NCBI GenBank assembly: GCA_963677975.1
Contig: OY782677.1
Span: 779,605 to 843,604, forward strand
DNA: 64,000 bases
Source of the DNA: Bacteroidales bacterium
Lineage (GTDB): Bacteria > Bacteroidota > Bacteroidia > Bacteroidales > UBA4417
Reading direction: 5' to 3'
Positions within the stretch are counted from its first letter, which is position 1; every line of letters begins with the position of its first letter. A program made the position numbers and the translations under genes. Shown here in pieces: positions 30,352 through 63,900 of the stretch. The notes beneath the pieces are model-generated. The model was not told the DNA's origin, made no database searches, and saw only the letters and a list, made by a program, of their open reading frames with translations.

Positions 30352-30789
30352 TCACCCCCTCTCTTCGTGAAGAGAGGGGGCTGGGGGGTGAGTTTTTCTG
30401 AACATTTCCCTTATTTTGAATAAAATATATTCTGTGTTATTTACATCAATGTTTTTCAACCTCAGGACCCTCAATCCAAGTTCAACAAGCACTGATGTTC
30501 GCCAATCATCATATTCGGCATGAAATGTATATATTCCTCCGTCCAGTTCTACAATTAATTTCTCTTCGGCACAATAAAAGTCGGCAATAAAAAATTGAAA
30601 AGAGTCGAAAGAATTTTCATAAATGATTTTATGCTGCCTGAGAAATTTTTTGCCATCAAGTTTTCTGTTTCGTACCATTTCCCACACAATCTTCTCAGCC
30701 TCAGTCATGTTTTTACGGTTTTCCCGACAAATGGCAACTACAAATTTCTTACGTGAAACCGGTTTCATCGCTTTTTTCAAGAAACTCAC
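30352..30789 (-). CDS. DUF559 (Vsr/restriction-endonuclease-like fold) protein, copy 1
   Basis: MTEAEKIVWEMVRNRKLDGKKFLRQH...FIADFYCAEEKLIVELDG...LGLRVLRLKNIDV matches the DUF559 pattern. The track start is GTG inside the repeat, so ATG 30768 (MKPVS) or the later MTEAEK is a more likely start. The C-terminal HPPAPSLHEERG is encoded by the hairpin element. Confidence 0.75.
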   Translation of the reverse strand: MSFLKKAMKPVSRKKFVVAICRENRKNMTEAEKIVWEMVRNRKLDGKKFLRQHKIIYENSFDSFQFFIADFYCAEEKLIVELDGGIYTFHAEYDDWRTSVLVELGLRVLRLKNIDVNNTEYILFKIREMFRKTHPPAPSLHEERG

Positions 30790-30897: not shown

Positions 30898-31335
30898 TCA
30901 CCCCCTCTCTTCGGGAAGAGAGGGGGCTGGGGGGTGAGTTTTTCTGAACATTTCCCTTATTTTGAATAAAATATATTCTGTGTTATTTACATCAATGTTT
31001 TTCAACCTCAGGACCCTCAATCCAAGTTCAACAAGCACTGATGTTCGCCAATCATCATATTCGGCATGAAATGTATGTATTCCTCCGTCCAGTTCTACAA
31101 TTAATTTCTCTTCGGCACAATAAAAGTTGGCAATAAAAAATTGAAAAGAGTCGAAAGAATTTTCATAAATGATTTTATGCTGCCTGAGAAATTTTTTGCC
31201 ATCAAGTTTTCTGTTTCGTACCATTTCCCACACAATCTTCTCAGCCTCAGTCATGTTTTTACGGTTTTCCCGACAAATGGCAACTACAAATTTCTTACGT
31301 GAAACCGGTTTCATCGCTTTTTTCAAGAAACTCAC
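30898..31335 (-). CDS. DUF559 (Vsr/restriction-endonuclease-like fold) protein, copy 2
   Basis: It differs from copy 1 at 3 of 145 residues (D->N, Y->H, H->P). The same start-codon caveat applies (ATG 31314). Confidence 0.75.
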   Translation of the reverse strand: MSFLKKAMKPVSRKKFVVAICRENRKNMTEAEKIVWEMVRNRKLDGKKFLRQHKIIYENSFDSFQFFIANFYCAEEKLIVELDGGIHTFHAEYDDWRTSVLVELGLRVLRLKNIDVNNTEYILFKIREMFRKTHPPAPSLPEERG

Positions 31336-42900: not shown

Positions 42901-45900
42901 TGTGGGAAGTTCAATCACTTTATCATCGACACCTTCGGGAGGCGCATCTCCCTACACCTTCAGCTGGACAGGTCCTGACGGTTATACCGGCAATACCGAA
43001 GATCCTACTGTATCAGCAAGCGCCACAACCGCGATGGCAGGTACCTATAATTTAATGGTTTCCGATACAAATGGGTGTTCTGCATACAGCAGCACCAGTG
43101 TTGTAGTTGATAACCAGCCGCCGACGGTAACAAGTTGTCCTTCCAATATCAGTCATGCGGTGGATGCCGGAGAATGCAACTATACAGTAAATCCATCAGA
43201 ACCGGTTTTTGCCGACAATTGCAGTGTTACAAGCGTAACATGGGTTATGGCGGGAGCCAACACGGGAAGTGGAAGCATAAGCATAGGCTCGACTGACTTT
43301 CTGACCGGTACAACCACGATAACTTATACTGCGCAGGATGCTGCGGGTAATACAGCGACCTGTTCCTTTACGGTAACAGTGACCGACAACATCAATCCGG
43401 CTATCACCTGCCCATCGAATGTGAGCCAGAATGTAAGCTCGGGATGCGATAAGTCCATAGCCATAACCGATCCGACCTATTCTGACAACTGTTCGGTAAC
43501 AGCATTAACCTGGGCGATGACAGGAGCCACCACGGCAACTTCGGCAGGCACAGGCATCAATGTTGTGGGCACACAAACCTTCAACGTAGGGACTTCCACA
43601 ATAACCTACACAGCGAAAGATGCAGCGAACAATACAGCGACCTGTTCATTTACAGTAACAGTGACCGACAACATCAATCCGGCTATCACCTGCCCATCGA
43701 ATGTGAGCCAGAATGTAAGTTCGGGATGCGATAAATCCATAGCAATAACCGATCCGACGTATTCTGACAACTGTTCGGTAACAGCATTAACCTGGGCGAT
43801 GACAGGAGCCACCACGGCAACTTCGGCAGGCACAGGCATCAATGTTGTGGGCACACAAACCTTCAACGTAGGGACTTCCACAATAACCTACACAGCGAAA
43901 GATGCAGCGAACAATATAGCGACCTGTTCATTTACAGTAACGGTGACCGACAACATCAATCCGGCTATCACCTGCCCATCGAATGTGAGCCAGAATGTAA
44001 GTTCGGGATGCGATAAATCCATAGCAATAACCGATCCGACGTATTCTGACAACTGTTCGGTAACAGCATTAACCTGGGCGATGACAGGAGCCACCACGGC
44101 AGCTTCGGCAGGCACAGGCATCAATGTTGTGGGCACACAAACTTTCAACGTAGGGACTTCCACAATAACCTACACAGCGAAAGATGCAGCGAACAATACA
44201 GCGACCTGTTCATTTACAGTAACGGTGACCGACAACATCAATCCGGCTATCACCTGCCCATCGAATGTGAGCCAGAATGTAAGTTCGGGATGCGATAAAT
44301 CCATAGCCATAACCGATCCGACCTATTCTGACAACTGTTCGGTAACAGCATTAACCTGGGCGATGACAGGAGCCACCACGGCAACTTCGGCAGGCACAGG
44401 CATCAATGTTGTGGGCACACAAACCTTCAACGTAGGGACTTCCACAATAACCTACACAGCGAAAGATGCAGCGAACAATACAGCGACCTGTTCATTTACA
44501 GTAACGGTGACCGACAACATCAATCCGGCTATCACCTGCCCATCGAATGTGAGCCAGAATGTAAGCTCGGGATGCGATAAGTCCATAGCCATAACCGATC
44601 CGACCTATTCTGACAACTGTTCGGTAACAGCATTAACCTGGGCGATGACAGGAGCCACCACGGCAACTTCGGCAGGCACAGGCATCAATGTTGTGGGCAC
44701 ACAAACCTTCAACGTAGGGACTTCCACAATAACCTACACAGCGAAAGATGCAGCGAACAATACAGCGACCTGTTCCTTTACAGTAACGGTGACCGACAAC
44801 ATCAATCCGGCTATCACCTGCCCATCGAATGTGAGCCAGAATGTAAGTTCGGGATGCGATAAATCCATAGCAATAACCGATCCGACGTATTCTGACAACT
44901 GTTCGGTAACAGCATTAACCTGGGCGATGACAGGAGCCACCACGGCAACTTCGGCAGGCACAGGCATCAATGTTGTGGGCACACAAACTTTCAACGTAGG
45001 GACTTCCACAATAACCTACACAGCGAAAGATGCAGCGAACAATACAGCGACCTGTTCATTTACAGTAACGGTGACCGACAACATCAATCCGGCTATCACC
45101 TGCCCATCGAATGTGAGCCAGAATGTAAGTTCGGGATGCGATAAATCCATAGCAATAACCGATCCGACGTATTCTGACAACTGTTCGGTAACAGCATTAA
45201 CCTGGGCGATGACAGGAGCCACCACGGCAACTTCGGCAGGCACAGGCATCAATGTTGTGGGCACACAAACTTTCAACGTAGGGACTTCCACAATAACCTA
45301 CACAGCGAAAGATGCAGCGAACAATATAGCGACCTGTTCCTTTACGGTAACGGTGACCGACAACATCAATCCGGCTATCACCTGCCCATCGAATGTGAGC
45401 CAGAATGTAAGTTCGGGATGCGATAAATCCATAGCAATAACCGATCCGACGTATTCTGACAACTGTTCGGTAACAGCATTAACCTGGGCAATGACAGGTG
45501 CCACCACGGCAACTTCGGCAGGCACAGGCATCAATGTTGTGGGCACACAAACCTTCAACGTAGGGACTTCCACAATAACCTACACAGCGAAAGATGCAGC
45601 GAACAATACAGCGAGCTGTTCATTTACAGTAACGTTGACCGACAACATCAATCCGGCTATCACCTGCCCATCGAATGTGAGCCAGAATGTAAGTTCGGGA
45701 TGCGATAAATCCATAGCAATAACCGATCCGACCTATTCTGACAACTGTTCGGTAACAGCATTAACCTGGGCGATGACAGGAGCCACCACGGCAACTTCGG
45801 CAGGCACAGGCATCAATGTTGTGGGCACACAAACCTTCAACGTAGGGACTTCCACAATAACCTACACAGCGAAAGATGCAGCGAACAATACAGCGACCTG

Positions 45901-48900
45901 TTCATTTACAGTAACAGTGACCGACAACATCAATCCAGCTATCACCTGCCCATCGAATGTGAGCCAGAATGTAAGCTCGGGATGCGATAAATCCATAGCA
46001 ATAACCGATCCGACGTATTCTGACAACTGTTCGGTAACAGCATTAACCTGGGCGATGACAGGAGCCACCACGGCAACTTCGGCAGGCACAGGCATCAATG
46101 TTGTGGGCACACAAACCTTCAACGTAGGGACTTCCACAATAACCTACACAGCGAAAGATGCAGCGAACAATACAGCGACCTGTTCATTTACAGTAACAGT
46201 GACCGACAACATCAATCCGGCTATCACCTGCCCATCGAATGTGAGCCAGAATGTAAGCTCGGGATGCGATAAATCCATAGCAATAACCGATCCGACGTAT
46301 TCTGACAACTGTTCGGTAACAGCATTAACCTGGGCGATGACAGGAGCCACCACGGCAACTTCGTCAGGCACAGGCATCAATGTTGTGGGCACACAAACCT
46401 TCAACGTAGGGACTTCCACAATAACCTACACAGCGAAAGATGCAGCGAACAATACAGCGACCTGTTCATTTACAGTAACAGTGACCGACAACATCAATCC
46501 GGCTATCACCTGCCCATCGAATGTGAGCCAGAATGTAAGTTCGGGATGCGATAAATCCATAGCAATAACCGATCCGACGTATTCTGACAACTGTTCGGTA
46601 ACAGCATTAACCTGGGCGATGACAGGAGCCACCACGGCAACTTCGGCAGGCACAGGCATCAATGTTGTGGGCACACAAACCTTCAACGTAGGGACTTCCA
46701 CAATAACCTACACAGCGAAAGATGCAGCGAACAATACAGCGACCTGTTCATTTACAGTAACGGTGACCGACAACATCAATCCGGCTATCACCTGCCCATC
46801 GAATGTGAGCCAGAATGTAAGTTCGGGATGCGATAAATCCATAGCCATAACCGATCCGACCTATTCTGACAACTGTTCGGTAACAGCATTAACCTGGGCG
46901 ATGACAGGAGCCACCACGGCAACTTCGGCAGGCACAGGCATCAATGTTGTGGGCACACAAACCTTCAACGTAGGGACTTCCACAATAACCTACACAGCGA
47001 AAGATGCAGCGAACAATACAGCGAGCTGTTCATTTACAGTAACAGTGACCGACAACATCAATCCGGCTATCACCTGCCCATCGAATGTGAGCCAGAATGT
47101 AAGTTCGGGATGCGATAAATCCATAGCAATAACCGATCCGACGTATTCTGACAACTGTTCGGTAACAGCATTAACCTGGGCGATGACAGGAGCCACCACG
47201 GCAACTTCGGCAGGCACAGGCATCAATGTTGTGGGCACACAAACTTTCAACGTAGGGACTTCCACAATAACCTACACAGCGAAAGATGCAGCGAACAATA
47301 CAGCGACCTGTTCATTTACAGTAACGGTGACCGACAACATCAATCCGGCTATCACCTGCCCATCGAATGTGAGCCAGAATGTAAGTTCGGGATGCGATAA
47401 ATCCATAGCAATAACCGATCCGACGTATTCTGACAACTGTTCGGTAACAGCATTAACCTGGGCGATGACAGGAGCCACCACGGCAACTTCGGCAGGCACA
47501 GGCATCAATGTTGTGGGCACACAAACCTTCAACGTAGGGACTTCCACAATAACCTACACAGCGAAAGATGCAGCGAACAATACAGCGAGCTGTTCCTTTA
47601 CGGTAACAGTGACTGACAACATCTCACCGAATATCAGCGACTGCGGGCTCAACCTGAGTGCGAATGCCAACGGCAGTTGCCAGGCAGCAGTACCTAATTT
47701 CACCACGGCAGTAGTAGCAACGGATAACTGTACGGCGAGCGGATCGCTGACCATTACCCAGAGCCCGGCGGCAACAACGCTTGTAGGCGCGGGAGTAACC
47801 ACAGTAACAATTTCCGTTGCGGATGCAGTGGGGAACACCTCTACCTGTTCGCGCACTTTTACGGTAACGGATAATGATCCTCCTGTTTTTGACTGCGGGA
47901 CCTTAACGACAGTAAGTTTAACGACGAATCCATCGACAGGATGTACGAATGATACAGATGTAACGCCACCAGTAGCAACAGATAACTGCGATACTCCGAT
48001 CACAGGGGTAGGCACGCGCAGCGATGCAGCAGCGATTAATGCAGCATGGCCGTTAGGCACCACCACAATTACCTGGACCTTCACCGATGCAGCTGGCAAC
48101 ACTACCACCTGTTCACAGAATGTAACGGTAACGGATAATGATCCTCCTGTTTTTGATTGCGGCACCTTAACGACAGTAACCTTAACGACGAATCCATCGA
48201 CGGGCTGTACGAACGACACAGATGTCACTCCTCCGGTCGCCACCGATAACTGCGACACACCGATTACGGGCGTTGGCACGCGCAACGATGCAGCAGCGAT
48301 TAATGCAGCATGGCCGTTAGGCACAACCACAATCACCTGGACATTTACAGATGCAGCGGGCAACAGTACGACCTGTTCCCAGAATGTTACGGTAACAGAT
48401 AATGATCCTCCTGTTTTTGACTGCGGGACCTTAACGACAGTAAGTTTAACGACGAATCCATCGACAGGATGTACGAATGATACAGATGTCACTCCTCCGG
48501 TCGCTACAGATAACTGCGACACGCCGATTACGGGCGTTGGCATGCGCAGCGACGCAGCAGGTATCAATTCGCCATGGACATTAGGCACCACAACGATCAC
48601 CTGGACCTTCACCGATGCAGCTGGCAACACTACCACCTGTTCACAGAATGTAACGGTAACGGATAATGATCCTCCTGTTTTTGATTGCGGCACCTTAACG
48701 ACAGTAAGTTTAACGACGAATCCATCGACGGGCTGTACGAACGACACAGATGTCACTCCTCCGGTCGCCACCGATAACTGCGACACACCGATTACGGGCG
48801 TTGGCACGCGCAGCGATGCAGCTGGTATCAATTCGCCATGGACATTAGGCACCACAACGATCACCTGGACCTTCACCGATGCAGCTGGCAACACTACCAC

Positions 48901-51900
48901 CTGTTCACAGAATGTAACGGTAACGGATAATGATCCTCCTGTTTTTGATTGCGGCACCTTAACGACAGTAGCCTTAACAACGAATCCATCAACAGGCTGT
49001 ACGAACGACACAGATGTCACTCCTCCGGTCGCCACCGATAACTGCGACACACCGATTACGGGCGTTGGAACGCGCAGCGACGCAGCTGGTATCAATTCGC
49101 CATGGACATTAGGCACCACAACGATCACCTGGACCTTTACCGATGCAGCGGGCAACAGTACGACCTGTTCACAGAATGTTACGGTAACGGATAATGATCC
49201 TCCAGTTTTTGATTGCGGCACCTTAACGACAGTAAGTTTAACGACGAATCCATCGACAGGATGTACGAATGATACAGATGTCACTCCTCCGGTCGCAACA
49301 GATAACTGCGACACGCCGATTACGGGCGTTGGAACGCGCAGCGACGCAGCTGGTATCAATTCGCCATGGACATTAGGCACCACAACGATCACCTGGACCT
49401 TTACCGATGCAGCGGGCAACAGTACGACCTGTTCACAGAATGTTACGGTAACGGATAATGATCCTCCTGTTTTTGACTGCGGGACTTTAACGACAGTAAG
49501 TTTAACGACGAATCCATCGACAGGATGTATGAATGATACAGATGTAACGCCGCCAGTCGCAACAGATAACTGCGATACCCCGATCACAGGGGTAGGCACG
49601 CGCAGCGATGCAGCAGCGATTAATGCAGCATGGCCGTTAGGCACCACCACAATCACCTGGACATTTACAGATGCAGCGGGCAACAGTACGACCTGTTCCC
49701 AGAATGTTACGGTAACGGATAATGATCCGCCAACAGTTGCCACCTGTCCCTCAAATATTTTGATAAATAATGAGCCTGGTATTTGTGGAGCTCATGTTAC
49801 ATATACACTTCCCACCTTTAATGATAACTGTGCCGGAAGCGGACTAACAGGGACACTTACAGCTGGCCAGGTATCAGGATCATTATTCCCCACCGGAACT
49901 ACGACTGTAACATATGAATATACAGATCCTTCAGGGAATGGTCCAGCTATCTGCAGTTTTACCGTTGTGGTAAAACCATGTGCCGATTTGACTATCACTA
50001 AAACAGACGGTACCGCCACCTATACCCCGGGAACAACCACAACCTACACTATTGTAGCCACTAATAATGGCCCGAGCAGTATAACCGGAGGCACCATATC
50101 GGATGCCATTCCATCGGGCACTACCTGGATTTTTACAGCCGTTGGCACAGGTGGAGCCACAGGCTTCACAAGCGGACCAGCAAACACAGCCATCAACGAT
50201 GTGGTGAACATGCCAAGCAGCAGTACAATTACTTATACGGTTGTAGTAACAATTCCAACAGGAAGAACCGGTAACCTGGTAAATACGGCTACAATCACTC
50301 CTCCCGCCGGAGTAGCGGATCCAACACCTGCTAACAATAATGCCGTAGATACAGATGTGCAGAACAGCATTGCCGATCTGAGAATCACCAAGACAGATGG
50401 TACTGCAACCTATACCCCCGGAACAACCACTACTTATACGATAGTTGCTACGAACAATGGCCCCAGCACGGTTATTGGTGCCACCATATCAGATGCAATC
50501 CCAGCTGGGACGACCTGGAGTTATACCGCAAGTTCTACCGGCTTAGCCACTGGTTTCACAGCTGGTCCAGCCACCACAGACATCAACGATGTTGTGAACA
50601 TGCCGGGTGGTAGTACTATTACCTATACTGTGGTAGTAACAATCCCATCGGGACAAACAGGTGACCTGGTAAATACTGCCACGATAGCAGTTCCGGTAGG
50701 AGTAACTGATCCTACACCAGGCAACAATAACGCAACAGATACCGATACAAAGAACAGCAAGGCTGACCTGAGCATAACCAAGACTGACGGGATCGGAACT
50801 TATATTCCAGGTACCACAACTACTTATATGATTGTTGTTACTAACAATGGTCCTAGTGATGTAACGGGAGCCACTGTAGCTGATGCCATTCCATCGGGTA
50901 CAACGTGGATTTATACAAGCAGCGCCGCAGGCGGGGCAACAGGCTATACACCAGGACCAGCCATTACTGCCATAAGCGATGTAGTAAATATGCCTGCCGG
51001 AAGCACTGTCACTTATAGCGTTGTTGTAACTATTCCTTCAGGACGAACCGGGAATCTGATAAATACGGCAACGGTCACAGCTCCTGTGGGTATACCTGAT
51101 CCGAACCCGGGCAACAACAGTGCAACAGACATCGACGCACAAAATAGTACAGCAGACCTGAGTATCACCAAGACGGATGGAATCGGAACTTATATTCCTG
51201 GCACTACGACCACCTACACGATCGTTGTCACTAATAGCGGTCCAAGTTATGTAACGGGAGCCACAATTTCGGATGCCATCCCATCAGGTACTACCTGGAG
51301 TTATACGGCAAGCGGTACAGGAGGAGCTACAGGCTTCACAACCGGTACAGGCACTGCTGCTATCAACAATACCGTAAACATGCCAGTTGGCAGCACGATC
51401 ACGTATATTGTAACAGTGACTATTCCTTCAGGCCGAACAGGAGACTTGGTCAATACGGCAACTGTCACCGCACCTGGAGGAGTTACAGATCCGACCCCGG
51501 GCAATAACAGTGCTACAGATACAGACACAAAAAACAGTGTCGCGGACCTGAGCATCACCAAGACGGACGGCAATGCTACTTATATCCCCGGTACTACGAC
51601 TACATACACGATCGTAGCCACAAATAATGGTCCAAGTAATGTAACGGGAGCTACCATTGCGGATGCTATCCCATCAGGCACGACATGGAGTTATACCGCA
51701 AGCGCTACCGGCGGAGCCACAGGCTTCACTGCCGGTCCGGCCACCACAGCCATCAACAATATAGTGAACATGCCTAGCGGTAGCAAGATTACATATACAG
51801 TTGTAGTAACAATTCCGTCAGGACGAACAGGTAACCTGGTGAATACTGCAACGGTGACCACACCTGTCGGTGTAACTGATCCGACCCCGGGCAATAACAG

Positions 51901-54900
51901 CGCTACGGATACTGACACTCAGAACAGTATAGCAGACCTGAGAATTACTAAGACAGATGGCCATGCTACCTATGTTCCCGGTACCACGACTACATACACA
52001 ATAGTAGCCACCAATACTGGTCCAAGCAATGTAACCGGAGCCTCAATTGCGGATGCCATTCCATCGGGCACAACATGGAGTTATTCGGCCAGCGCTACAG
52101 GTGGAGCCACAGGCTTCACAGCCGGACCAGCAACCAATGCTATTAGTGATGTTGTGAACATGCCAGGCGGCAGCACAATCACTTATACGGTTGTAGTTAC
52201 AATTCCATCAGGACGAACAGGCAATCTCGTGAATACGGCTTCAATTGTTGCTCCTGTTGGAGTGACGGACCCGACCCCAGGCAACAACAGTGCTACGGAT
52301 ACTGACACGCAGAACAGTATTGCTGACCTGAGAATTACTAAGACTGACGGAATTACTATTTATATCCCCGGTACCACGACCACATACACTATAGTGGCAA
52401 CTAACAATGGTCCGAGTAATGTAATAGGAGCCACCATATCGGATGCCATCCCCTCAGGAACAACCTGGAGTTATACAGCAAGCGCTACAGGCGGAGCTAC
52501 AGGCGTCACAGCCGGACCATCCACTACAGCTATCAGTGATGTAGTGAATATGCCAGGCGGCAGCACAATCACCTACATAGTGGTGCTTACGATTCCATCA
52601 GGACAAACAGGTGCCCTGATAAATACTGCTACGATTACTGTGCCGGGAGGAGTAACAGATCCTACACCTGGCAATAATACCGCAACCGATACCGATGTAC
52701 CTATGTCAAGTGCAGATCTTGTCACGGTCAAGACGGACGGCAACGCTACCTATACAGCAGGCACGAATGTGGTTTACACAGTAACGGTTACCAACAACGG
52801 ACCTAGCGATGCTGTGAATGTACTTGTAGCCGACAATGCCCCTTCGGGCACGGCCATCACAGGCTGGACGTCAAGCGGCACCGGCGCCACCCCGCCGAAT
52901 GCGAGCGGCATCGGCAACCTGTCAGAGACGGTCTTGAGCATGCCTAACGGCAGCAGTGTGACCTATACGATCACCGTAAGTGTACCTTCCGACTATACGG
53001 GCAACCTGGTAAATACGGCCACGGTAAGCAGCCCGACCCCGGATCCTGATCCGACATGCCCGGCATGTACCGATACGGACACCCCGAGCCCAAGCGCCAA
53101 CCTGGTGACGGTCAAAACGGACGGTAGTGCTACCTATACAGCAGGCACGAATGTGGTTTACACGGTAACGGTTACCAACAACGGACCTAGCGATGCTGTG
53201 AATGTACTTGTAGCCGACAATGCCCCAGCGGGCACGGCTATCACAGGCTGGACGGCAAGCGGCACAGGCGCCACCCCACCGAATGCGAGCGGCAGCGGTA
53301 ACCTGTCAGAGACGGTACCCGGCATGCCTAACGGCAGCAGTGTCACCTATACGATCACCGTAAGTGTACCTTCCGACTATACAGGCAACCTGGTAAATAC
53401 GGCCACGGTAAGCAGCCCGACCCCGGATCCGGATCCGACATGCCCGGCATGTACCGATACGGACACCCCGAGCCCAAGCGCCAACCTGGTGACGGTCAAG
53501 ACGGACGGTAGTGCTACCTATACAGCAGGCACGAATGTGGTTTACACGGTAACGGTTACCAACAACGGACCTAGCGATGCTGTGAATGTACTTGTAGCCG
53601 ACAATGCCCCAGCGGGCACGGCTATCACAGGCTGGACGGCAAGCGGCACCGGCGCCACCCCACCGAATGCGAGCGGCAGCGGCAACCTGTCAGAGACGGT
53701 ACCCGGCATGCCTAACGGCAGCAGTGTCACCTATACGATCACCGTAAGTGTACCTTCCGACTATACGGGCAACCTGGTAAATACGGCCACGGTAAGCAGC
53801 CCGACCCCGGATCCGGATCCGACATGCCCGGCATGTACCGATACGGACACCCCGAGCCCAAGCGCCAACCTGGTGACGGTCAAGACGGACGGTAGTGCTA
53901 CCTATACAGCAGGCACGAATGTGGTTTACACGGTAACGGTTACCAACAACGGACCTAGCGATGCTGTGAATGTACTTGTAGCCGACAATGCCCCAGCGGG
54001 CACGGCTATCACAGGCTGGACGGCAAGCGGCACAGGCGCCACCCCGCCGAATGCGAGCGGCAGCGGCAACCTGTCAGAGACGGTACCCGGCATGCCTAAC
54101 GGCAGCAGTGTGACCTATACGATCACCGTAAGTGTACCTTCCGACTATACGGGCAACCTGGTAAATACGGCCACGGTAAGCAGCCCGACCCCGGATCCTG
54201 ATCCGACATGCCCGGCATGTACCGATACGGACACCCCGAGCCCAAGCGCCAACCTGGTGACGGTCAAGACGGACGGCAATTCCACCTACACCGCAGGCAC
54301 GAATGTGGTTTACACGGTAACGGTTACCAACAACGGACCTAGCGATGCTGTGAATGTACTTGTAGCCGACAATGCCCCTTCGGGCACGGCCATCACAGGC
54401 TGGACGGCAAGCGGCACCGGCGCCACCCCACCGAATGCGAGCGGCAGCGGTAACCTGTCAGAGACGGTACCCGGCATGCCTAACGGCAGCAGTGTCACCT
54501 ATACGATCACCGTAAGTGTACCTTCCGACTATACAGGCAACCTGGTAAATACGGCCACGGTAAGCAGCCCGACCCCGGATCCGGATCCGACATGCCCGGC
54601 ATGTACCGATACGGACACCCCGAGCCCAAGCGCCAACCTGGTGACGGTCAAGACGGACGGTAGTGCTACCTATACAGCAGGCACGAATGTGGTTTACACG
54701 GTAACGGTTACCAACAACGGACCTAGCGATGCTGTGAATGTACTTGTAGCCGACAATGCCCCAGCGGGCACGGCTATCACAGGCTGGACGGCAAGCGGCA
54801 CCGGCGCCACCCCACCGAATGCGAGCGGCAGCGGCAACCTGTCAGAGACGGTACCCGGCATGCCTAACGGCAGCAGTGTCACCTATACGATCACCGTAAG

Positions 54901-57900
54901 TGTACCTTCCGACTATACGGGCAACCTGGTAAATACGGCCACGGTAAGCAGCCCGACCCCGGATCCGGATCCGACATGCCCGGCATGTACCGATACGGAC
55001 ACCCCGAGCCCAAGCGCCAACCTGGTGACGGTCAAGACGGACGGTAGTGCTACCTATACAGCAGGCACGAATGTGGTTTACACGGTAACGGTTACCAACA
55101 ACGGACCTAGCGATGCTGTGAATGTACTTGTAGCCGACAATGCCCCAGCGGGCACGGCTATCACAGGCTGGACGGCAAGCGGCACAGGCGCCACCCCGCC
55201 GAATGCGAGCGGCAGCGGCAACCTGTCAGAGACGGTACCCGGCATGCCTAACGGCAGCAGTGTCACCTATACGATCACCGTAAGTGTACCTTCCGACTAT
55301 ACGGGCAACCTGGTAAATACGGCCACGGTAAGCAGCCCGACCCCGGATCCTGATCCGACATGCCCGGCATGTACCGATACGGACACCCCGAGCCCAAGCG
55401 CCAACCTGGTGACGGTCAAGACGGACGGCAATTCCACCTACACCGCAGGCACGAATGTGGTTTACACGGTAACGGTTACCAACAACGGACCTAGCGATGC
55501 TGTGAATGTACTTGTAGCCGACAATGCCCCTTCGGGCACGGCCATCACAGGCTGGACGGCAAGCGGCACCGGCGCCACCCCACCGAATGCGAGCGGCAGC
55601 GGTAACCTGTCAGAGACGGTACCCGGCATGCCTAACGGCAGCAGTGTCACCTATACGATCACCGTAAGTGTACCTTCCGACTATACAGGCAACCTGGTAA
55701 ATACGGCCACGGTAAGCAGCCCGACCCCGGATCCGGATCCGACATGCCCGGCATGTACCGATACGGACACCCCGAGCCCAAGCGCCAACCTGGTGACGGT
55801 CAAGACGGACGGTAGTGCTACCTACACTGCAGGCACGAATGTGGTTTACACGGTAACGGTTACCAACAACGGACCTAGCGATGCTGTGAATGTACTTGTA
55901 GCCGACAATGCCCCTTCGGGCACGGCCATCACAGGCTGGACGGCAAGCGGCACAGGCGCCACCCCGCCGAATGCGAGCGGCATCGGCAACCTGTCAGAGA
56001 CGGTCTTGAGCATGCCTAACGGCAGCAGTGTGACCTATACGATCACCGTAAGCGTACCTTCCGACTATACGGGCAACCTGGTAAATACGGCCACGGTAAG
56101 CAGCCCGACCCCGGATCCTGATCCGACATGCCCGGCATGTACCGATACGGACACCCCGAGCCCAAGCGCCAACCTGGTGACGGTCAAAACGGACGGTAGT
56201 GCTACCTATACAGCAGGCACGAATGTGGTTTACACGGTAACGGTTACCAACAACGGACCTAGCGATGCTGTGAATGTACTTGTAGCCGACAATGCCCCAG
56301 CGGGCACGGCTATCACAGGCTGGACGGCAAGCGGCACAGGCGCCACCCCACCGAATGCGAGCGGCAGCGGCAACCTGTCAGAGACGGTCTTGAGCATGCC
56401 TAACGGCAGCAGTGTGACCTATACGATCACCGTAAGTGTACCTTCCGACTATACGGGCAACCTGGTAAATACGGCCACGGTAAGCAGCCCGACCCCGGAT
56501 CCTGATCCGACATGCCCGGCATGTACCGATACGGACACCCCGAGCCCAAGCGCCAACCTGGTGACGGTCAAGACGGACGGCAATGCCACCTACACTGCAG
56601 GCACGAATGTGGTTTACACGGTAACGGTTACCAACAACGGACCTAGCGATGCTGTGAATGTACTTGTAGCCGACAATGCCCCTTCGGGCACGGCCATCAC
56701 AGGCTGGACGTCAAGCGGCACCGGCGCCACCCCGCCGAATGCGAGCGGCATCGGCAACCTGTCAGAGACGGTCTTGAGCATGCCTAACGGCAGCAGTGTG
56801 ACCTATACGATCACCGTAAGTGTACCTTCCGACTATACGGGCAACCTGGTAAATACGGCCACGGTAAGCAGCCCGACCCCGGATCCTGATCCGACATGCC
56901 CGGCATGTACCGATACGGACACCCCGAGCCCAAGCGCCAACCTGGTGACGGTCAAGACGGACGGTAGTGCTACCTATACAGCAGGCACGAATGTGGTTTA
57001 CACGGTAACGGTTACCAACAACGGACCTAGCGATGCTGTGAATGTACTTGTAGCCGACAATGCCCCTTCGGGCACGGCCATCACAGGCTGGACGGCAAGC
57101 GGCACCGGCGCCACCCCACCGAATGCGAGCGGCAGCGGTAACCTGTCAGAGACGGTACCCGGCATGCCTAACGGCAGCAGTGTCACCTATACGATCACCG
57201 TAAGTGTACCTTCCGACTATACAGGCAACCTGGTAAATACGGCCACGGTAAGCAGCCCGACCCCGGATCCGGATCCGACATGCCCGGCATGTACCGATAC
57301 GGACACCCCGAGCCCAAGCGCCAACCTGGTGACGGTCAAGACGGACGGCAATGCCACCTACACTGCAGGCACGAATGTGGTTTACACGGTAACGGTTACC
57401 AACAACGGACCTAGCGATGCTGTGAATGTACTTGTAGCCGACAATGCCCCTTCGGGCACGGCCATCACAGGCTGGACGTCAAGCGGCACCGGCGCCACCC
57501 CGCCGAATGCGAGCGGCATCGGCAACCTGTCAGAGACGGTCTTGAGCATGCCTAACGGCAGCAGTGTGACCTATACGATCACCGTAAGCGTGCCTTCAAA
57601 CTATACGGGCAACCTGGTAAATACGGCCACGGTAAGCAGCCCGACCCCGGATCCTGATCCGACATGCCCGGCATGTACCGATACGGACACCCCGAGCCCA
57701 AGCGCCAACCTGGTGACGGTCAAGACGGACGGCAATTCCACCTACACCGCAGGCACGAATGTGGTTTACACGGTAACGGTTACCAACAACGGACCTAGCG
57801 ATGCTGTGAATGTACTTGTAGCCGACAATGCCCCAGCGGGCACGGCCATCACAGGCTGGACGGCAAGCGGCACCGGCGCCACCCCACCGAATGCGAGCGG

Positions 57901-60900
57901 CAGCGGTAACCTGTCAGAGACGGTACCCGGCATGCCTAACGGCAGCAGTGTCACCTATACGATCACCGTAAGTGTACCTTCCGACTATACGGGCAACCTG
58001 GTAAATACGGCCACGGTAAGCAGCCCGACTCCGGATCCTGATCCGACATGCCCGGCATGTACCGATACGGACACCCCGAGCCCAAGCGCCAACCTGGTGA
58101 CGGTCAAGACGGACGGCAATGCCACCTACACTGCAGGCACGAATGTGGTTTACACGGTAACGGTTACCAACAACGGACCTAGCGATGCTGTGAATGTACT
58201 TGTAGCCGACAATGCCCCTTCGGGCACGGCTATCACAGGCTGGACGTCAAGCGGCACCGGCGCCACCCCACCGAATGCGAGCGGCATCGGCAACCTGTCA
58301 GAGACGGTACCCGGCATGCCTAACGGCAGCAGTGTCACCTATACGATCACCGTAAGCGTGCCTTCAAACTATACGGGCAACCTGGTAAATACGGCCACGG
58401 TAAGCAGCCCGACTCCGGATCCTGATCCGACATGCCCGGCATGTACCGATACGGACACCCCGAGCCCAAGCGCCAACCTGGTGACGGTCAAGACGGACGG
58501 CAATGCCACCTACACCGCAGGCACGAATGTGGTTTACACGGTAACGGTTACCAACAACGGACCTAGCGATGCTGTGAATGTACTTGTAGCCGACAATGCC
58601 CCTTCGGGCACGGCTATCACAGGCTGGACGGCAAGCGGCACAGGCGCCACCCCACCGAATGCGAGCGGCATCGGCAACCTGTCAGAGACGGTACCCGGCA
58701 TGCCTAACGGCAGCAGTGTCACCTATACGATCACCGTAAGTGTACCTTCCGACTATACGGGCAACCTGGTAAATACGGCCACGGTAAGCAGCCCGACCCC
58801 GGATCCGGATCCGACATGCCCGGCATGTACCGATACGGACACCCCGAGCCCAAGCGCCAACCTGGTGACGGTCAAGACGGACGGTAGTGCTACCTATACA
58901 GCAGGCACGAATGTGGTTTACACGGTAACGGTTACCAACAACGGACCTAGCGATGCTGTGAATGTACTTGTAGCCGACAATGCCCCTTCGGGCACGGCTA
59001 TCACAGGCTGGACGGCAAGCGGCACAGGCGCCACCCCACCGAATGCAAGCGGCAGCGGCAACCTGTCAGAGACGGTACCCGGCATGCCTAACGGCAGCAG
59101 TGTCACCTATACGATCACCGTAAGTGTACCTTCCGACTATACGGGCAACCTGGTAAATACGGCCACGGTAAGCAGCCCGACCCCGGATCCGGATCCGACA
59201 TGCCCGGCATGTACCGATACGGACACCCCGAGCCCAAGCGCCAACCTGGTGACGGTCAAGACGGACGGCAATGCCACCTACACTGCAGGCACGAATGTGG
59301 TTTACACGGTAACGGTTACCAACAACGGACCTAGCGATGCTGTGAATGTACTTGTAGCCGACAATGCCCCTTCGGGCACGGCCATCACAGGCTGGACGTC
59401 AAGCGGCACCGGCGCCACCCCGCCGAATGCGAGCGGCATCGGCAACCTGTCAGAGACGGTCTTGAGCATGCCTAACGGCAGCAGTGTGACCTATACGATC
59501 ACCGTAAGTGTACCTTCCGACTATACGGGCAACCTGGTAAATACGGCCACGGTAAGCAGCCCGACCCCGGATCCGGATCCGACATGCCCGGCATGTACCG
59601 ATACGGACACCCCGAGCCCAAGCGCCAACCTGGTGACGGTCAAGACGGACGGTAGTGCTACCTATACAGCAGGCACGAATGTGGTTTACACAGTAACGGT
59701 TACCAACAACGGACCTAGCGATGCTGTGAATGTACTTGTAGCCGACAATGCCCCAGCGGGCACGGCTATCACAGGCTGGACGGCAAGCGGCACCGGCGCC
59801 ACCCCACCAAATGCGAGCGGCAGCGGCAACCTGTCAGAGACGGTACCCGGCATGCCTAACGGCAGCAGTGTCACCTATACGATCACCGTAAGTGTACCTT
59901 CCGACTATACTGGCAACCTGGTAAATACGGCCACGGTAAGCAGCCCGACCCCGGATCCGGATCCGACATGCCCGGCATGTACCGATACGGATCAAAATTA
60001 TTCTTTAACAGTTGTAAAAACTCAGACCTCGGGACCAAATCCAGTAACTGCAGCAGGGCAATTACTAACATATAGTATTGTAATAACCAATTCTGGAACA
60101 ATTAACCAGACCGGATTAGTACCGACGGAGATCTATCCTGGTGCAGGCACAGGCACTTTGAGCGCAGCGACTGAAAGCATTAGCACGAATGGCATTCTGA
60201 ATGTCGGGGAGACCTGGACTTACATAGCTACTTACACTACCACTCAGGCGGATGTAGATGCAGCTATACCGCTTATTAACACGATCAGTGTGGTAACAAA
60301 TGAAATGCCCAGCCCGACTACGGATACGGAAACGACTCCGGTCATATCAACTCCTGTTATATCACTTACCAAAACAGCTGACGATGTAAGCGATGTAACC
60401 TTAGGCCAGACGATCACTTATACTTATGTTATAACCAACACAGGTAATGTAACGATGAGCAATGTGAGTGTTTCAGACGTGATCAACGTAGGAACAGGCA
60501 CACTGAGTTCGATATCCCCTACCAGTGTTGCAAGCCTTGCAGTTGGAGCAAGTACGAGCTTCACGGCCACTTATATAGTGACACAGGCAGACGTTAACCA
60601 CCAGGTGAATATTACCAATACCGCTACAGCCACTGCTTACAACGGAGCGACACCATATACAGCTACCGACAACGAAAGTGTTGATGTTACCGATTTACCA
60701 ACAGCTGTAACAGATACCTATACCACAACGGAAGACACACCTATAACGCTCTTACCGTTAACCGGTGACAGCGATCCTGACGGCGGTACCCTGTCGATTA
60801 CCTCGATCAACGGAGTGACCCTGACCCCGGGCACAGCGCAGACGATCCCTGTAACCAACGGAACGGTAAGTATCACAGCAGGCGGGGTCATAACCTTTAC

Positions 60901-63900
60901 CCCGGCAGCCAACTATTTCGGAACAGTGACCTTCCCGTATGTAATCAGCGACGGCCAGGGCGGCACTGCCACAGCCGATGAGATTATCAACATCAGCTCG
61001 GTGAATGATCCACCAATAGCTGTAACAGATACCTATACCACAACGGAAGACACGCCTGTAACGCTCTTACCGTTAACCGGCGACAGTGATCCTGACGGCG
61101 GCACCCTGTCGATCACCTCGATCAACGGAGTGACCCTGACCCCTGGCACAGCGCAGACGATCCCTGTAACCAACGGAACGGTAAGTATCACAGCAGGCGG
61201 GGTCATAACCTTTACCCCGGCAGCCAACTATTTCGGAACAGTAACCTTCCCGTATGTAATCAGCGACGGCCAGGGCGGCACTGCCACAGCCGATGAGATT
61301 ATCAACATCAGCTCGGTGAATGATCCACCAATAGCTGTAACAGATACCTATACCACAACGGAAGACACACCTGTAACGCTCTTACCGTTAACCGGCGACA
61401 GCGATCCTGACGGCGGCACCCTGTCGATCACCTCGATCAACGGAGTGACCCTGACCCCTGGCACAGCGCAGACGATCCCTGTAACCAACGGAACGGTAAG
61501 TATCACAGCAGGCGGGGTCATAACCTTTACCCCGGCAGCCAACTATTTCGGAACAGTGACCTTCCCGTATGTAATCAGCGACGGCCAGGGCGGCACCGCC
61601 ACAGCCGATGAGATTATCAACATCAGCTCGGTGAACGATCCACCAATAGCTGTAACAGATACCTATACCACAACGGAAGACACACCTGTAACGCTCTTAC
61701 CGTTAACCGGTGACAGCGATCCTGACGGCGGTACCCTGTCGATTACCTCGATCAACGGAGTGACCCTGACCCCGGGCACAGCGCAGACGATCCCTGTAAC
61801 CAACGGAACGGTAAGTATCACAGCAGGCGGGGTCATAACCTTTACCCCGGCAGCCAACTATTTCGGAACAGTAACCTTCCCGTATGTAATCAGCGACGGC
61901 CAGGGCGGCACTGCCACAGCCGATGAGATTATCAACATCAGCTCGGTGAATGATCCACCAATAGCTGTAACAGATACCTATACCACAACAGAAGACACAC
62001 CTGTAACGCTGTTACCGTTAACCGGCGACAGCGATCCTGACGGCGGCACCCTGTCGATCACCTCGATCAACGGAGTGACCCTGACCCCTGGCACAGCGCA
62101 GACGATCCCTGTAACCAACGGAACGGTAAGTATCACAGCAGGCGGGGTCATAACCTTTACCCCGGCAGCCAACTATTTCGGAACAGTAACCTTCCCGTAT
62201 GTAATCAGCGACGGCCAGGGCGGCACTGCCACAGCCGATGAGATTATCAACATCAGCTCGGTGAACGATCCACCAATAGCCGTAACAGATACTTATACCA
62301 CAACGGAAGACACACCTGTAACGCTCTTACCATTAACCGGTGACAGCGATCCTGACGGCGGTACCCTGTCGATTACCTCGATCAACGGAGTGACCCTGAC
62401 CCCTGGCACAGCGCAGACGATCCCTGTAACCAACGGAACGGTAAGTATCACAGCAGGCGGGGTCATAACCTTTACCCCGGCAGCCAACTATTTCGGAACA
62501 GTAACCTTCCCGTATGTAATCAGCGACGGCCAGGGCGGCACCGCCACAGCCGATGAGATTATCAACATCAGCTCGGTGAACGATCCACCAATAGCTGTAA
62601 CAGATACCTATACCACAACAGAAGACACACCTGTAACGCTGTTACCGTTAACCGGCGACAGCGATCCTGACGGCGGCACCCTGTCGATCATCTCGATCAA
62701 CGGAGTGACCCTGACCCCTGGCACAGCGCAGACGATCCCTGTAACCAACGGAACGGTAAGTATCACAGCAGGCGGGGTCATAACCTTTACCCCGGCAGCC
62801 AACTATTTCGGAACAGTAACCTTCCCGTATGTAATCAGCGACGGCCAGGGCGGCACTGCCACAGCCGATGAGATTATCAACATCAGCTCGGTGAATGATC
62901 CACCAATAGCTGTGACAGATACCTATACCACAACGGAAGACACACCTGTAACGCTGTTACCGTTAACCGGCGACAGTGATCCTGACGGCGGCACCCTATC
63001 GATCACCTCGATCAACGGAGTGACCCTGACCCCTGGCACCGCGCAGACGATCCCTGTAACCAACGGAACGGTAAGTATCACAGCAGGCGGGGTCATAACC
63101 TTTACCCCGGCAGCCAACTATTTCGGAACAGTGACCTTCCCGTATGTAATCAGCGACGGCCAGGGCGGCACAGCTACAGCCGATGAGATTATCAACATCA
63201 GCTCGGTGAACGATCCACCAATAGCTGTAACAGATACCTATACCACAACGGAAGACACACCTGTAACGCTCTTACCGTTAACCGGTGACAGCGATCCTGA
63301 CGGCGGTACCCTGTCGATTACCTCGATCAACGGAGTGACCCTGACCCCGGGCACAGCGCAGACGATCCCTGTAACCAACGGAACGGTAAGTATCACAGCA
63401 GGCGGGGTCATAACCTTTACCCCGGCAGCCAACTATTTCGGAACAGTGACCTTCCCGTATGTAATCAGCGACGGCCAGGGCGGCACTGCCACAGCCGATG
63501 AGATTATCAACATCAGCTCGGTGAATGATCCACCAATAGCTGTAACAGATACCTATACCACAACGGAAGACACGCCTGTAACGCTCTTACCGTTAACCGG
63601 CGACAGTGATCCTGACGGCGGCACCCTGTCGATCACCTCGATCAACGGAGTGACCCTGACCCCTGGCACAGCGCAGACGATCCCTGTAACCAACGGAACG
63701 GTAAGTATCACAGCAGGCGGGGTCATAACCTTTACCCCGGCAGCCAACTATTTCGGAACAGTAACCTTCCCGTATGTAATCAGCGACGGCCAGGGCGGCA
63801 CTGCCACAGCCGATGAGATTATCAACATCAGCTCGGTGAACGATCCACCAACAGCTGTGACAGATACCTATACCACAGCTGAAGACACACCTGTAACGCT

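What the first reader, a model, noticed from the sequence alone, without database searches (positions are those of the whole stretch)
52712..59992. Every unit of the expanded DUF11 array carries a CPAC (CxxC) motif that the ancestral-looking units lack
In the 7 diverged units the inter-domain segment reads DP(T/N)PGNN(S/N)ATDTD and has no cysteine. In all 19 homogenised units the equivalent segment is PDPDPTCPACTDTD. The amplified unit therefore introduces 19 regularly spaced CxxC motifs, each flanked by Asp/Pro/Thr-rich linkers, into an extracellular protein.

CxxC motifs are classically redox-active or metal-binding. Here they could form local disulfides that stiffen the linkers, bind metal, or crosslink. 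I do not recall a CxxC as a standard DUF11 feature, so this may be a lineage-specific innovation that was then amplified.
Basis: partly seen in the sequence, partly recalled or inferred. Interest (0 to 1): 0.55.

Follow-up and report, generated by a model that had tools for sequence, protein, structure and literature searches.

The report
Known disulfide staple in adhesin repeats
The 19 CPAC motifs are real, but they are copies of an already described feature: a small two-cysteine disulfide staple in the last strand of DUF11 ("CLIPPER") stalk domains of giant bacterial surface adhesins, so this is an ordinary new example.

Summary
A giant + strand gene (about 36953 to beyond 64000, more than 9,000 aa) has 7 diverged DUF11 units with no Cys, then 19 near-identical units. 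Each of the 19 has exactly two Cys, as CPAC.

- The segment is not a linker. It is the last beta-strand of the DUF11 domain.
- The 19 motifs are one event copied 19 times. All use the identical codons TGCCCGGCATGT.
- The motif is not a private innovation. The only solved DUF11/CLIPPER structure, 9IFR (Protein Sci 2025), has a C-T-T-C "tetrapeptide disulfide motif" in its last strand. A profile alignment puts its two Cys in the same columns as CPAC, and 9IFR is the top fold match to my model.
- Of 2,827 DUF11 domains from 150 relatives, 162 carry CxxC at this spot. The inner residues vary and the two Cys almost always occur together.
- 23 of 39 Bacteroidota genome loci have it, including other homogenised arrays.
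- The CPAC unit's nearest relatives elsewhere carry CxxC. The diverged units' nearest relatives do not.

Most likely this is a structural intrastrand disulfide beside a Lys-Asn isopeptide bond. A redox or metal role is unlikely. Interest is low.

The parts
36953..64000 (+). Giant surface-protein gene, more than 9,000 aa and open past the window end. Order of parts: signal peptide MKGKRNVVLLCLGIMLTLGTLQTKAQ, N-terminal head, scattered DUF11, HYR arrays, DUF11 arrays, DUF7507, Big_9/cadherin-like array.
   Evidence: Frame open from 36797 to 64000. Met at 36953 followed by a hydrophobic signal-like segment. Pfam architecture. Weak IgGFc_binding match in the head.
49985..52714 (+). Seven diverged DUF11/CLIPPER units of 130 aa, with no Cys. 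The last strand reads DPxPGNNxATDTD. The Lys/Asp/Asn triad is present.
   Evidence: TRF period 390, 75% matches. Pfam DUF11 66.7 bits, profile positions 1-113 of 114.
52715..60004 (+). Nineteen homogenised DUF11/CLIPPER units of 128 aa (384 bp). Each has CPAC in its last strand and the Lys/Asp/Asn triad.
   Evidence: Pfam DUF11 73.2 bits against a cutoff of 24.6. TIGR01451 44.7 bits. AF2 pLDDT 94-95. Top PDB fold match is 9ifr.
52730..52732 (+). Predicted isopeptide Lys (VTVKTDG) of CPAC unit 1. It recurs every 384 bp in all 19 units.
   Evidence: Aligns to Lys715 of 9IFR, HMM column 10. Present in all 19 units.
52832..52834 (+). Predicted catalytic Asp (LVADNAP) of CPAC unit 1. It recurs every 384 bp.
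   Evidence: HMM column 44, aligned with the LNDTL Asp of 9IFR. Present in all 19 units.
53012..53014 (+). Predicted isopeptide Asn (NLVNTATV) of CPAC unit 1. It recurs every 384 bp.
   Evidence: Aligns to Asn806 of 9IFR, HMM column 104. Present in all 19 units.
53057..53068 (+). CPAC motif 1 (TGCCCGGCATGT)
   Evidence: The Cys fall in the same HMM columns (121/124) as Cys818/Cys821 of 9IFR.
53441..53452 (+). CPAC motif 2
53825..53836 (+). CPAC motif 3
54209..54220 (+). CPAC motif 4
54593..54604 (+). CPAC motif 5
54977..54988 (+). CPAC motif 6
55361..55372 (+). CPAC motif 7
55745..55756 (+). CPAC motif 8
56129..56140 (+). CPAC motif 9
56513..56524 (+). CPAC motif 10
56897..56908 (+). CPAC motif 11
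57281..57292 (+). CPAC motif 12
57665..57676 (+). CPAC motif 13
58049..58060 (+). CPAC motif 14
58433..58444 (+). CPAC motif 15
58817..58828 (+). CPAC motif 16
59201..59212 (+). CPAC motif 17
59585..59596 (+). CPAC motif 18
59969..59980 (+). CPAC motif 19, in the last unit, followed by TDTDQNYS and the DUF7507 domains

Best explanation
Each of the 19 units is a DUF11 (PF01345, recently renamed CLIPPER) Ig-like stalk domain. The domains belong to a giant secreted adhesin of a Bacteroidota bacterium, probably a type IX secretion substrate.

The CPAC motif sits in the domain's last beta-strand, not in a linker. It is the counterpart of the Cys818-Thr-Thr-Cys821 'tetrapeptide disulfide motif' seen in the CLIPPER crystal structure 9IFR. 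There the two Cys bond to each other and make a bulge in the strand.

In this subfamily the motif DPxPxCxxC replaces the commoner DPxPGNNxA version of the same strand. The disulfide most likely acts as a small local staple. It would add stability and protease resistance alongside the Lys-Asn isopeptide bond, whose Lys/Asp/Asn triad is present in every unit.

There are 19 motifs only because one unit was amplified and homogenised recently. The Cys pair itself is an older subfamily trait, shared with adhesins of Chitinophaga, Flavobacterium, Pedobacter and others.

Shown here: domain identity, position in the last strand, column equivalence to the crystal-structure Cys pair, recurrence and co-occurrence of the two Cys in other genomes, and the copy history. 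Inferred: that the bond forms in this protein, and that its role is structural.
For: Domain identity:
- Pfam DUF11 scores 73.2 bits against a cutoff of 24.6, and TIGR01451 scores 44.7 bits.
- The AF2 single-unit model has pLDDT 95.3 and the two-unit model 94.2, and both are all-beta.
- The best PDB fold match of the single unit is 9ifr, the CLIPPER domain, with E 2.8e-7, TM 0.69/0.74 and 28% identity.

The known motif:
- PMC12617251 reports the isopeptide bond Lys715-Asn806 and the Cys818/Thr/Thr/Cys821 disulfide, which causes a beta-bulge in the last strand, beta9. It also reports disulfides in 29.7% of isopeptide-bearing DUF11 domains.

Positional equivalence:
- I translated the 9IFR construct from Table S6 of that paper and aligned it to my DUF11 profile. 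Its two Cys fall in HMM columns 121 and 124, the same as CPAC. Its Lys and Asn fall in columns 10 and 104, the same as the unit's Lys and Asn.
- The models show a bridge residue, then two non-strand residues (Cys-Pro), then a strand from Ala-Cys onward. That is a bulge at the motif.

Recurrence:
- 162 of 2,827 domains in 27 of 150 representative proteins have CxxC there. CTTC occurs 26 times, CPAC 14 and CPDC 10, among 40 distinct forms listed.
- The Cys at columns 121 and 124 co-occur in 147 domains, against 21 domains with only one of them.
- Cys per domain is 0 in 1,031 domains, 2 in 1,604 and 4 in 138, against 1 in 34 and 3 in 20.
- Within single proteins, units only 36-48% identical keep both Cys while showing 5-13 different tetrapeptides.

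Other arrays and relatives:
- Other homogenised arrays carry their own CxxC: 15 CTGC in Chitinophaga sp. GbtcB8, 14 CPDC in C. agrisoli and 15 CDDC in Parapedobacter deserti.
- Chitinophaga sp. MM2321 WP_349318315.1 has 11 CPAC and is named a gliding motility-associated C-terminal domain protein.
- In the core-only comparison, 129 of the CPAC unit's top 200 relatives carry CxxC, against 0 of the top 400 for the diverged unit type.

Copy history:
- The codons are identical in all 19 motifs.
Against: No direct evidence shows that the bond forms in this protein. Model coordinates are not exposed, so I could not measure the S-S distance or the solvent exposure.

The sequence match of the unit to 9IFR is weak. 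The profile score is 13.7 bits with high compositional bias, and PDB sequence searches with the unit and with the profile did not retrieve 9IFR. The equivalence therefore rests on the profile alignment, the fold match and the shared triad.

The function of the CxxC disulfide was not tested, even in the 9IFR study. Only the isopeptide Lys was mutated.

A Cys-Pro-x-Cys string superficially resembles redox-active motifs.

The genome survey was biased, because two of the scan patterns contained the motif itself.
Confidence: 0.8

Rival explanations
1. The CxxC motifs are functional redox or metal-binding sites. They might act as a thiol-disulfide exchange centre, or capture Zn, Cu or Fe, arrayed 19 times along an extracellular stalk.
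For: CxxC, and Cys-Pro-x-Cys in particular, is the classical form of redox-active and metal-binding motifs (established knowledge). The flanks are rich in Asp, which could add oxygen ligands. No experiment excludes it.
Against: - Each unit has only 2 Cys and no His, so it cannot make a four-ligand site.
- Successive motifs are separated by a whole rigid 128-aa Ig-like domain.
- The fold is all-beta with no helix, unlike thioredoxin-like or heavy-metal-associated folds. No such Pfam family matches.
- The two inner residues are essentially free among homologues: CTTC, CDDC, CTGC, CPDC, CAGC and others, 40 forms listed. Redox tuning or metal geometry would constrain them.
- The homologous motif is an oxidised disulfide in the crystal.
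Confidence: 0.06
2. The Cys form intermolecular disulfides. These would crosslink neighbouring adhesin molecules, or link the adhesin to other surface proteins, into a covalent mesh.
For: Nineteen regularly spaced Cys pairs on a long surface fibre would be well placed for lateral crosslinking. Whether the motif is exposed could not be checked here.
Against: The two Cys co-occur almost strictly (147 paired against 21 single). Domains have even Cys counts (0, 2 or 4), which is the signature of intradomain pairing. The i/i+3 pair bonds to itself in 9IFR. The isolated 9IFR construct carries its CTTC as an intradomain disulfide in the modelled structure.
Confidence: 0.03
3. The Cys pair has no role in this protein. 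It is a neutral feature of the unit that happened to be amplified, and it may stay reduced or be irrelevant to stability.
For: Within the window the 19 motifs are one event copied by repeat homogenisation, so their number says nothing about selection. The diverged units and most DUF11 domains do without it. The closest single relative found, P0105, lacks Cys at up to 63% core identity.
Against: Both Cys are retained across units and proteins that have otherwise diverged to 36-48% identity, while the residues between them change freely. Single Cys at either column are rare. The motif is spread over several Bacteroidota genera and also occurs in Acinetobacter.
Confidence: 0.08

Closest known systems
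CLIPPER (DUF11, PF01345) domain of Acinetobacter silvestris adhesin B9T28_05395, PDB 9IFR (Protein Sci 2025, PMC12617251)
   Same: Same Pfam family and same CnaA-like Ig fold; it is the top fold match, TM 0.69/0.74. The Lys/Asp/Asn isopeptide triad falls in the same alignment columns. A CxxC in the last strand falls in the same two columns, where it forms a disulfide with a beta-bulge. Both are tandem stalk units of a giant Gram-negative surface adhesin.
   Different: The tetrapeptide is CPAC rather than CTTC. The loop between the isopeptide Asn and the first Cys is 3 residues longer (+15 against +12). Identity is only about 28%. The host is a Bacteroidota bacterium whose relatives carry a T9SS-type C-terminal domain, not a gammaproteobacterium with an OmpA-like anchor. 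Here the unit is amplified to 19 near-identical copies.
Canonical DUF11/TIGR01451 units with the DPxPGNNxA last strand, such as the 7 neighbouring units
   Same: Same domain, same triad and same strand. DP-x-P precedes and T-D-T-D follows in both.
   Different: They have Asn-Asn in place of the Cys pair and no Cys at all. Their cores belong to a different subfamily: 45% identity to the CPAC unit, and 0 of their 400 nearest relatives carry CxxC.
DUF11 domains with a mid-loop Cys pair (WTC-x7-C type)
   Same: Also a paired-Cys decoration of the same domain. This was the commonest Cys arrangement in my survey, at 1,194 of 2,827 domains. The published 29.7% figure for disulfides 'at various sites' probably includes this type; that is my inference.
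   Different: The site is different, a loop between central strands. It rarely coexists with the last-strand CxxC (13 domains). In my biased sample it was found in non-Bacteroidota phyla, whereas the last-strand CxxC was found in Bacteroidota.
Gram-positive pilins and adhesins that combine isopeptide bonds with disulfides (SpaA_2/3/4 and DUF5979 families; PMC12617251 Table S4)
   Same: A covalent isopeptide plus a disulfide in one Ig-like stalk domain of a surface fibre.
   Different: Different folds (CnaB-like) and different disulfide positions, and a sortase-anchored Gram-positive setting.
Thioredoxin-fold and zinc-binding CxxC motifs
   Same: Only the four-residue string C-x-x-C. The Cys-Pro start recalls DsbA or glutaredoxin motifs (from memory).
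   Different: No thioredoxin or zinc-ribbon fold, no helix, no second ligand pair, and the inner residues are not conserved among homologues.

Membership tests
DUF11 / CLIPPER domain (Pfam PF01345; TIGR01451) | Match to the family profile above the curated threshold | tested here: met
   PF01345 scores 73.2 bits against a cutoff of 24.6 for a single CPAC unit. TIGR01451 scores 44.7 bits against 24. The DUF11 match to the C-terminal 4,672 aa, which holds both arrays, has 27 stretches.
DUF11 / CLIPPER domain (Pfam PF01345; TIGR01451) | CnaA-like Ig beta-sandwich fold like the solved CLIPPER domain | tested here: met
   The AF2 model has pLDDT 95.3 and 8 strands of 3 or more residues plus one bridge residue. 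Foldseek's top PDB hit is 9ifr, with E 2.8e-7, TM 0.69/0.74.
DUF11 / CLIPPER domain (Pfam PF01345; TIGR01451) | Lys (first strand), Asp (catalytic) and Asn (penultimate strand) triad for the intramolecular isopeptide bond | tested here: met
   The residues are present in all 19 CPAC units and in all 7 diverged units. The Lys and Asn align to Lys715 and Asn806 of 9IFR. Formation of the bond itself cannot be tested with these tools.
DUF11 / CLIPPER domain (Pfam PF01345; TIGR01451) | Tandem stalk position in a long protein that has a signal peptide | tested here: met
   There is a signal-peptide-like N-terminus at 36953. The ORF exceeds 9,000 aa and has HYR, DUF11, DUF7507 and cadherin-like arrays.
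CLIPPER last-strand 'tetrapeptide disulfide' variant (as in 9IFR Cys818-x-x-Cys821) | Two Cys at i and i+3 in the alignment columns of Cys818 and Cys821 | tested here: met
   hmmalign of the 9IFR construct and the CPAC unit to one profile puts both Cys pairs in columns 121 and 124.
CLIPPER last-strand 'tetrapeptide disulfide' variant (as in 9IFR Cys818-x-x-Cys821) | Location within the final beta-strand, with a bulge at the motif | tested here: met
   DSSP on both AF2 models shows a bridge at the Thr before the first Cys, then Cys-Pro non-strand, then a strand from Ala-Cys-Thr-Asp-Thr-Asp-Thr-Pro. This is a prediction, not an experiment.
CLIPPER last-strand 'tetrapeptide disulfide' variant (as in 9IFR Cys818-x-x-Cys821) | The two Cys are actually joined by a disulfide bond | not testable with these tools
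   Model coordinates are not returned, so no S-S distance is available. It needs mass spectrometry with and without reductant, or a structure. Indirect support comes from the paired occurrence (147 against 21) and even Cys counts in homologues.
Thioredoxin-like redox CxxC proteins | Thioredoxin fold with the CxxC at the N-terminus of a helix | tested here: not met
   Neither model has a helix. No thioredoxin-type Pfam match was found.
Thioredoxin-like redox CxxC proteins | Conserved inner dipeptide that tunes the redox potential | tested here: not met
   Forty distinct tetrapeptides are listed at this position among homologues, and 5-13 different ones within single proteins.
Zinc or heavy-metal CxxC sites (zinc ribbon or knuckle, HMA domains) | Four ligands (two CxxC, or CxxC plus His or Cys) within one folded unit, or a beta-alpha-beta-beta-alpha-beta HMA fold | tested here: not met
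   Each unit has exactly 2 Cys and no His. The fold is an all-beta Ig fold.
Type IX secretion (T9SS) type B cargo / 'gliding motility-associated C-terminal domain' proteins | C-terminal sorting domain | not testable with these tools
   The ORF runs off the window at 64000, so its C-terminus is not seen. The CxxC-bearing relatives P0099, P0101 and P0253 are named this way by NCBI or UniRef.

The most novel reading that the evidence does not exclude
The last-strand CxxC might be more than a passive staple. It lies on the stretch of chain between one domain's isopeptide Asn and the next domain's isopeptide Lys, which is the only part of an isopeptide-locked stalk that carries load. A strained intrastrand disulfide repeated 19 times there could act as a redox- or force-sensitive element that changes stalk stiffness or length when reduced. 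In my (biased) sample it also looks like a Bacteroidota-typical alternative to the mid-loop disulfide used by other phyla. That could reflect how T9SS cargo is oxidised and folded in the periplasm.
Probability: 0.08. Interest if true: 0.45.

Novelty: new member of a known kind. Interest (0 to 1): 0.14.

Why it matters
It matters little beyond annotation. The result turns an apparently odd run of 19 CxxC motifs into a recognised structural feature of CLIPPER/DUF11 stalk domains.

Three small points add to the 2025 description:
- The last-strand CxxC defines a coherent DUF11 subfamily with the motif DPxPxCxxC.
- That subfamily is frequent in giant Bacteroidota adhesins. The published survey lumps phyla with fewer than 100 such domains under 'Other', and Bacteroidota is not among the phyla it lists, so it may be under-counted there. 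I have not tested why.
- The two kinds of Cys pair, last-strand and mid-loop, are nearly mutually exclusive and may be split by phylum.

The function of this disulfide has never been tested, so a simple mutational study would be new. No long-standing question depends on it.

Tried and rejected
- PDB sequence searches with one unit and with a 20-sequence DUF11 profile found only chance Ig-like hits and missed 9IFR. The entry is in the library, but it scores only 13.7 bits with heavy compositional bias. I reached it through the literature and the construct DNA in Table S6.
- The fold search with the two-unit model was dominated by two-domain integrin alpha legs, AgI/II C-terminal domains and Cna. 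It was uninformative for the motif. The single-unit model gave 9ifr as the top hit.
- I looked for model coordinates in /data to measure the Cys-Cys distance and exposure, and none are provided.
- The first homologue search returned only short fragments of at most 268 aa. It was enough to show CxxC in P0005, P0006, P0055 and P0063, but not for frequencies. The representative search supplied those.
- A second literature search for further work on CLIPPER disulfides found nothing beyond the 2025 paper.
- I considered assembly collapse or artefact as the source of identical units. It is not testable here. Units differ at 0-7% of nucleotides and at 9 amino-acid columns (plus the divergent tail of the last unit), in a mosaic pattern. 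That is what real homogenised arrays look like, but the copy number should be treated as approximate.
- I considered the neighbouring genes for a Dsb-like or metal-related context. They are ordinary: acyl-CoA carboxylase subunits, asparaginase, TatD, DUF559 twice and a sigma-54 activator.

Full report
**1. What is in the window**

The reading frame that contains the finding is open from 36797 to the end of the window. A Met at 36953 starts a signal-peptide-like segment, MKGKRNVVLLCLGIMLTLGTLQTKAQ.

The product exceeds 9,000 residues. Pfam gives this order:
- an N-terminal head with a weak IgGFc_binding match;
- scattered DUF11 domains and one Big_9 domain;
- two homogenised HYR arrays;
- DUF11 arrays;
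- DUF7507 domains;
- a homogenised Big_9/cadherin-like array that runs off the window.

The gene lies among ordinary metabolic and regulatory genes. The window matches a metagenome-assembled contig of several Mb.

**2.

There are 26 DUF11 units in the region.
- Seven 130-aa units at 49985-52714 have no Cys. They end in DPxPGNNxATDTD, with minor deviations in units 1, 3 and 7.
- Nineteen units at 52715-60004 each have exactly two Cys, in PDPDPTCPACTDTD.

These 19 are the only CxxC strings in the whole translated protein. In the alignment, T-C-P-A-C lies on G-N-N-S-A.

The number 19 carries no statistical weight. All 19 motifs use the same 12 nucleotides, and the units are 93-100% identical at the DNA level. 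It is one motif copied by repeat amplification and homogenisation.

**3. The segment is not a linker**

In the diverged units the Pfam DUF11 profile runs through the segment, covering profile positions 1-113 of 114.

AlphaFold2 models are confident, with pLDDT 95.3 for one unit and 94.2 for two consecutive units. Both show the same pattern. The Thr before the first Cys is a bridge residue, Cys-Pro are non-strand, and the last strand continues from Ala-Cys-Thr-Asp-Thr-Asp-Thr-Pro. The motif is therefore a bulge within the final strand. The true linker is only the few residues Ser-Pro-Ser-Ala.

**4. It is a described feature**

A 2025 paper (PMC12617251) renamed DUF11 as CLIPPER. It solved the first structure of the domain, 9IFR, from an Acinetobacter silvestris adhesin.

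The paper reports:
- an intramolecular isopeptide bond, Lys715-Asn806;
- in the final strand, a 'tetrapeptide disulfide motif', Cys818-Thr-Thr-Cys821, that causes a mid-strand bulge;
- disulfides in 29.7% of isopeptide-bearing DUF11 domains, at various sites.

I translated the crystallised construct from the paper's Table S6 and aligned it to a DUF11 profile built from this window's units and their homologues. The two Cys of 9IFR fall in the same profile columns (121 and 124) as CPAC. Its Lys and Asn fall in the columns of the unit's VTVKTDG Lys and LVNTATV Asn.

The entry is in the PDB copy, and it is the best fold match of the single-unit model, with E 2.8e-7 and TM 0.69/0.74. The Lys/Asp/Asn triad is present in all 26 units.

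**5. How common it is**

A full HMMER search with two units found 19,349 representative proteins at E up to 0.001. In the best 150 I located 2,827 DUF11 domains that include the last strand.

*Frequency.* 162 domains (5.7%), in 27 proteins, have CxxC at this position. The forms are very diverse: CTTC 26, CPAC 14, CPDC 10, and 40 distinct forms listed.

*Pairing.*
- The two Cys co-occur in 147 domains, against 21 domains with only one of them.
- Domains have 0, 2 or 4 Cys (1,031, 1,604 and 138 domains) far more often than 1 or 3 (34 and 20). That is the usual signature of disulfide pairing.

*Divergence.* Within single proteins whose units are only 36-48% identical, both Cys are kept while the inner residues vary.

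*Other site.* A different pair, in a central loop, is commoner at 1,194 domains and rarely coexists with the last-strand pair (13 domains).

*Named genomes.* A scan of named genomes found the last-strand CxxC in 23 of 39 Bacteroidota loci. The genera are Chitinophaga, Flavobacterium, Pedobacter, Parapedobacter, Algibacter and Postechiella. It includes other homogenised arrays:
- 15 CTGC in Chitinophaga sp. GbtcB8;
- 14 CPDC in C. agrisoli;
- 15 CDDC in Parapedobacter deserti.

It was found in 0 of 40 loci from other phyla, which used the mid-loop pair instead. This scan was biased, because two of its search patterns contained the motif.

A Chitinophaga protein with 11 CPAC units, and two other CxxC-bearing Flavobacterium relatives, are annotated as gliding motility-associated or T9SS type B C-terminal domain proteins.

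**6. The two unit types are not ancestor and descendant**

The two unit types are 45% identical. I compared domain cores with the last strand removed.
- Of the CPAC unit's 200 best matches elsewhere, 129 carry CxxC.
- None of the diverged unit's 400 best matches do.

The Cys pair is therefore a trait of an older DUF11 subfamily with the motif DPxPxCxxC. It was not invented in this protein from its neighbours.

**7. Mechanism**

The best-supported reading is an intrastrand disulfide that staples a bulge in the last strand. It takes the place of the Asn-Asn version of the same strand, and it adds to the stability that the isopeptide bond provides.

What is shown: domain identity, position, equivalence to the crystal motif, paired conservation and copy history. 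What is inferred: that the bond forms here, and that its role is structural.

The 2025 study mutated only the isopeptide Lys, so the role of the disulfide is untested anywhere.

Four observations argue against redox or metal roles:
- the all-beta fold;
- only two Cys and no His per unit;
- a whole domain between successive motifs;
- the free variation of the inner residues.

Strict pairing argues against intermolecular crosslinking. A purely neutral hitchhiker is unlikely, given the conservation across diverged units and genera.

**8. What could not be done**

Model coordinates are not returned, so the Cys-Cys distance and exposure were not measured. The C-terminus of the protein is outside the window. 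The phylum split needs an unbiased census.

**9. Verdict**

It is wrong on novelty, on the 'linker' description and on the ancestral/derived reading.

This is a new member of a known kind. Interest is low.

Noticed in passing
L002-L080 (genome loci) and P0099-P0248: The site of the Cys pair in DUF11 domains appears split by phylum. In Bacteroidota loci, 138 of 334 domains have the last-strand CxxC and 2 have the mid-loop pair. In loci from other phyla, 0 of 325 have the last-strand CxxC and 200 of 325 have a mid-loop C-x(4-10)-C pair. The two sites rarely coexist (13 of 2,827 domains). The sample is biased by motif-containing scan patterns, and Acinetobacter 9IFR is an exception.
   Followed up: partly
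window 36953-64000 (+): One gene of more than 27 kb holds five separately homogenised tandem arrays: HYR 282 bp x 15.3 at 98% (43314-47623); HYR-like 264 bp x 6.5 at 92% (48011-49728); DUF11 390 bp x 6.8 at 75%; DUF11 384 bp x 18.9 at 96%; and Big_9/cadherin-like 315 bp x 10.5 or more at 97% (60697 to the window end). Copy numbers in such arrays depend on assembly quality.
   Followed up: partly
window 47554-49743 (-): A 729-aa GTG-start ORF on the minus strand lies wholly inside the HYR repeat region of the giant + strand gene. It is probably a spurious antisense ORF kept open by the repeat composition.
   Followed up: no
window 36932-63997 (+), Pfam scan: Pfam 'hits' of the giant protein to IPK, TRAP_beta, bMG10 and CNDH2_M have good whole-protein E-values but zero individually significant stretches. 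They are summed noise from dozens of repeats, not real domains.
   Followed up: no
window 30352-30789 and 30898-31335 (-): Two adjacent 145-aa DUF559 (endonuclease-like) genes lie in tandem upstream of the adhesin region. A PAS/sigma-54 activator (32634-34865, +) is the nearest upstream gene on the same strand as the adhesin.
   Followed up: no
window 36953-38500 (+): The N-terminal head of the giant protein has only a weak IgGFc_binding Pfam match (29.4 bits), so the presumed adhesive tip is otherwise unannotated.
   Followed up: no
PMC12617251 Table S5 compared with L002-L080: The published AlphaFold-DB survey does not list Bacteroidota among the phyla in its table of disulfide-plus-isopeptide domains. 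Phyla with fewer than 100 such domains are pooled as 'Other' (2.8%). In contrast, 41% of the DUF11 domains in the Bacteroidota genome loci sampled here carry the CxxC. The database may under-sample giant adhesins. This is my inference, and my own sample is biased toward the motif.
   Followed up: no
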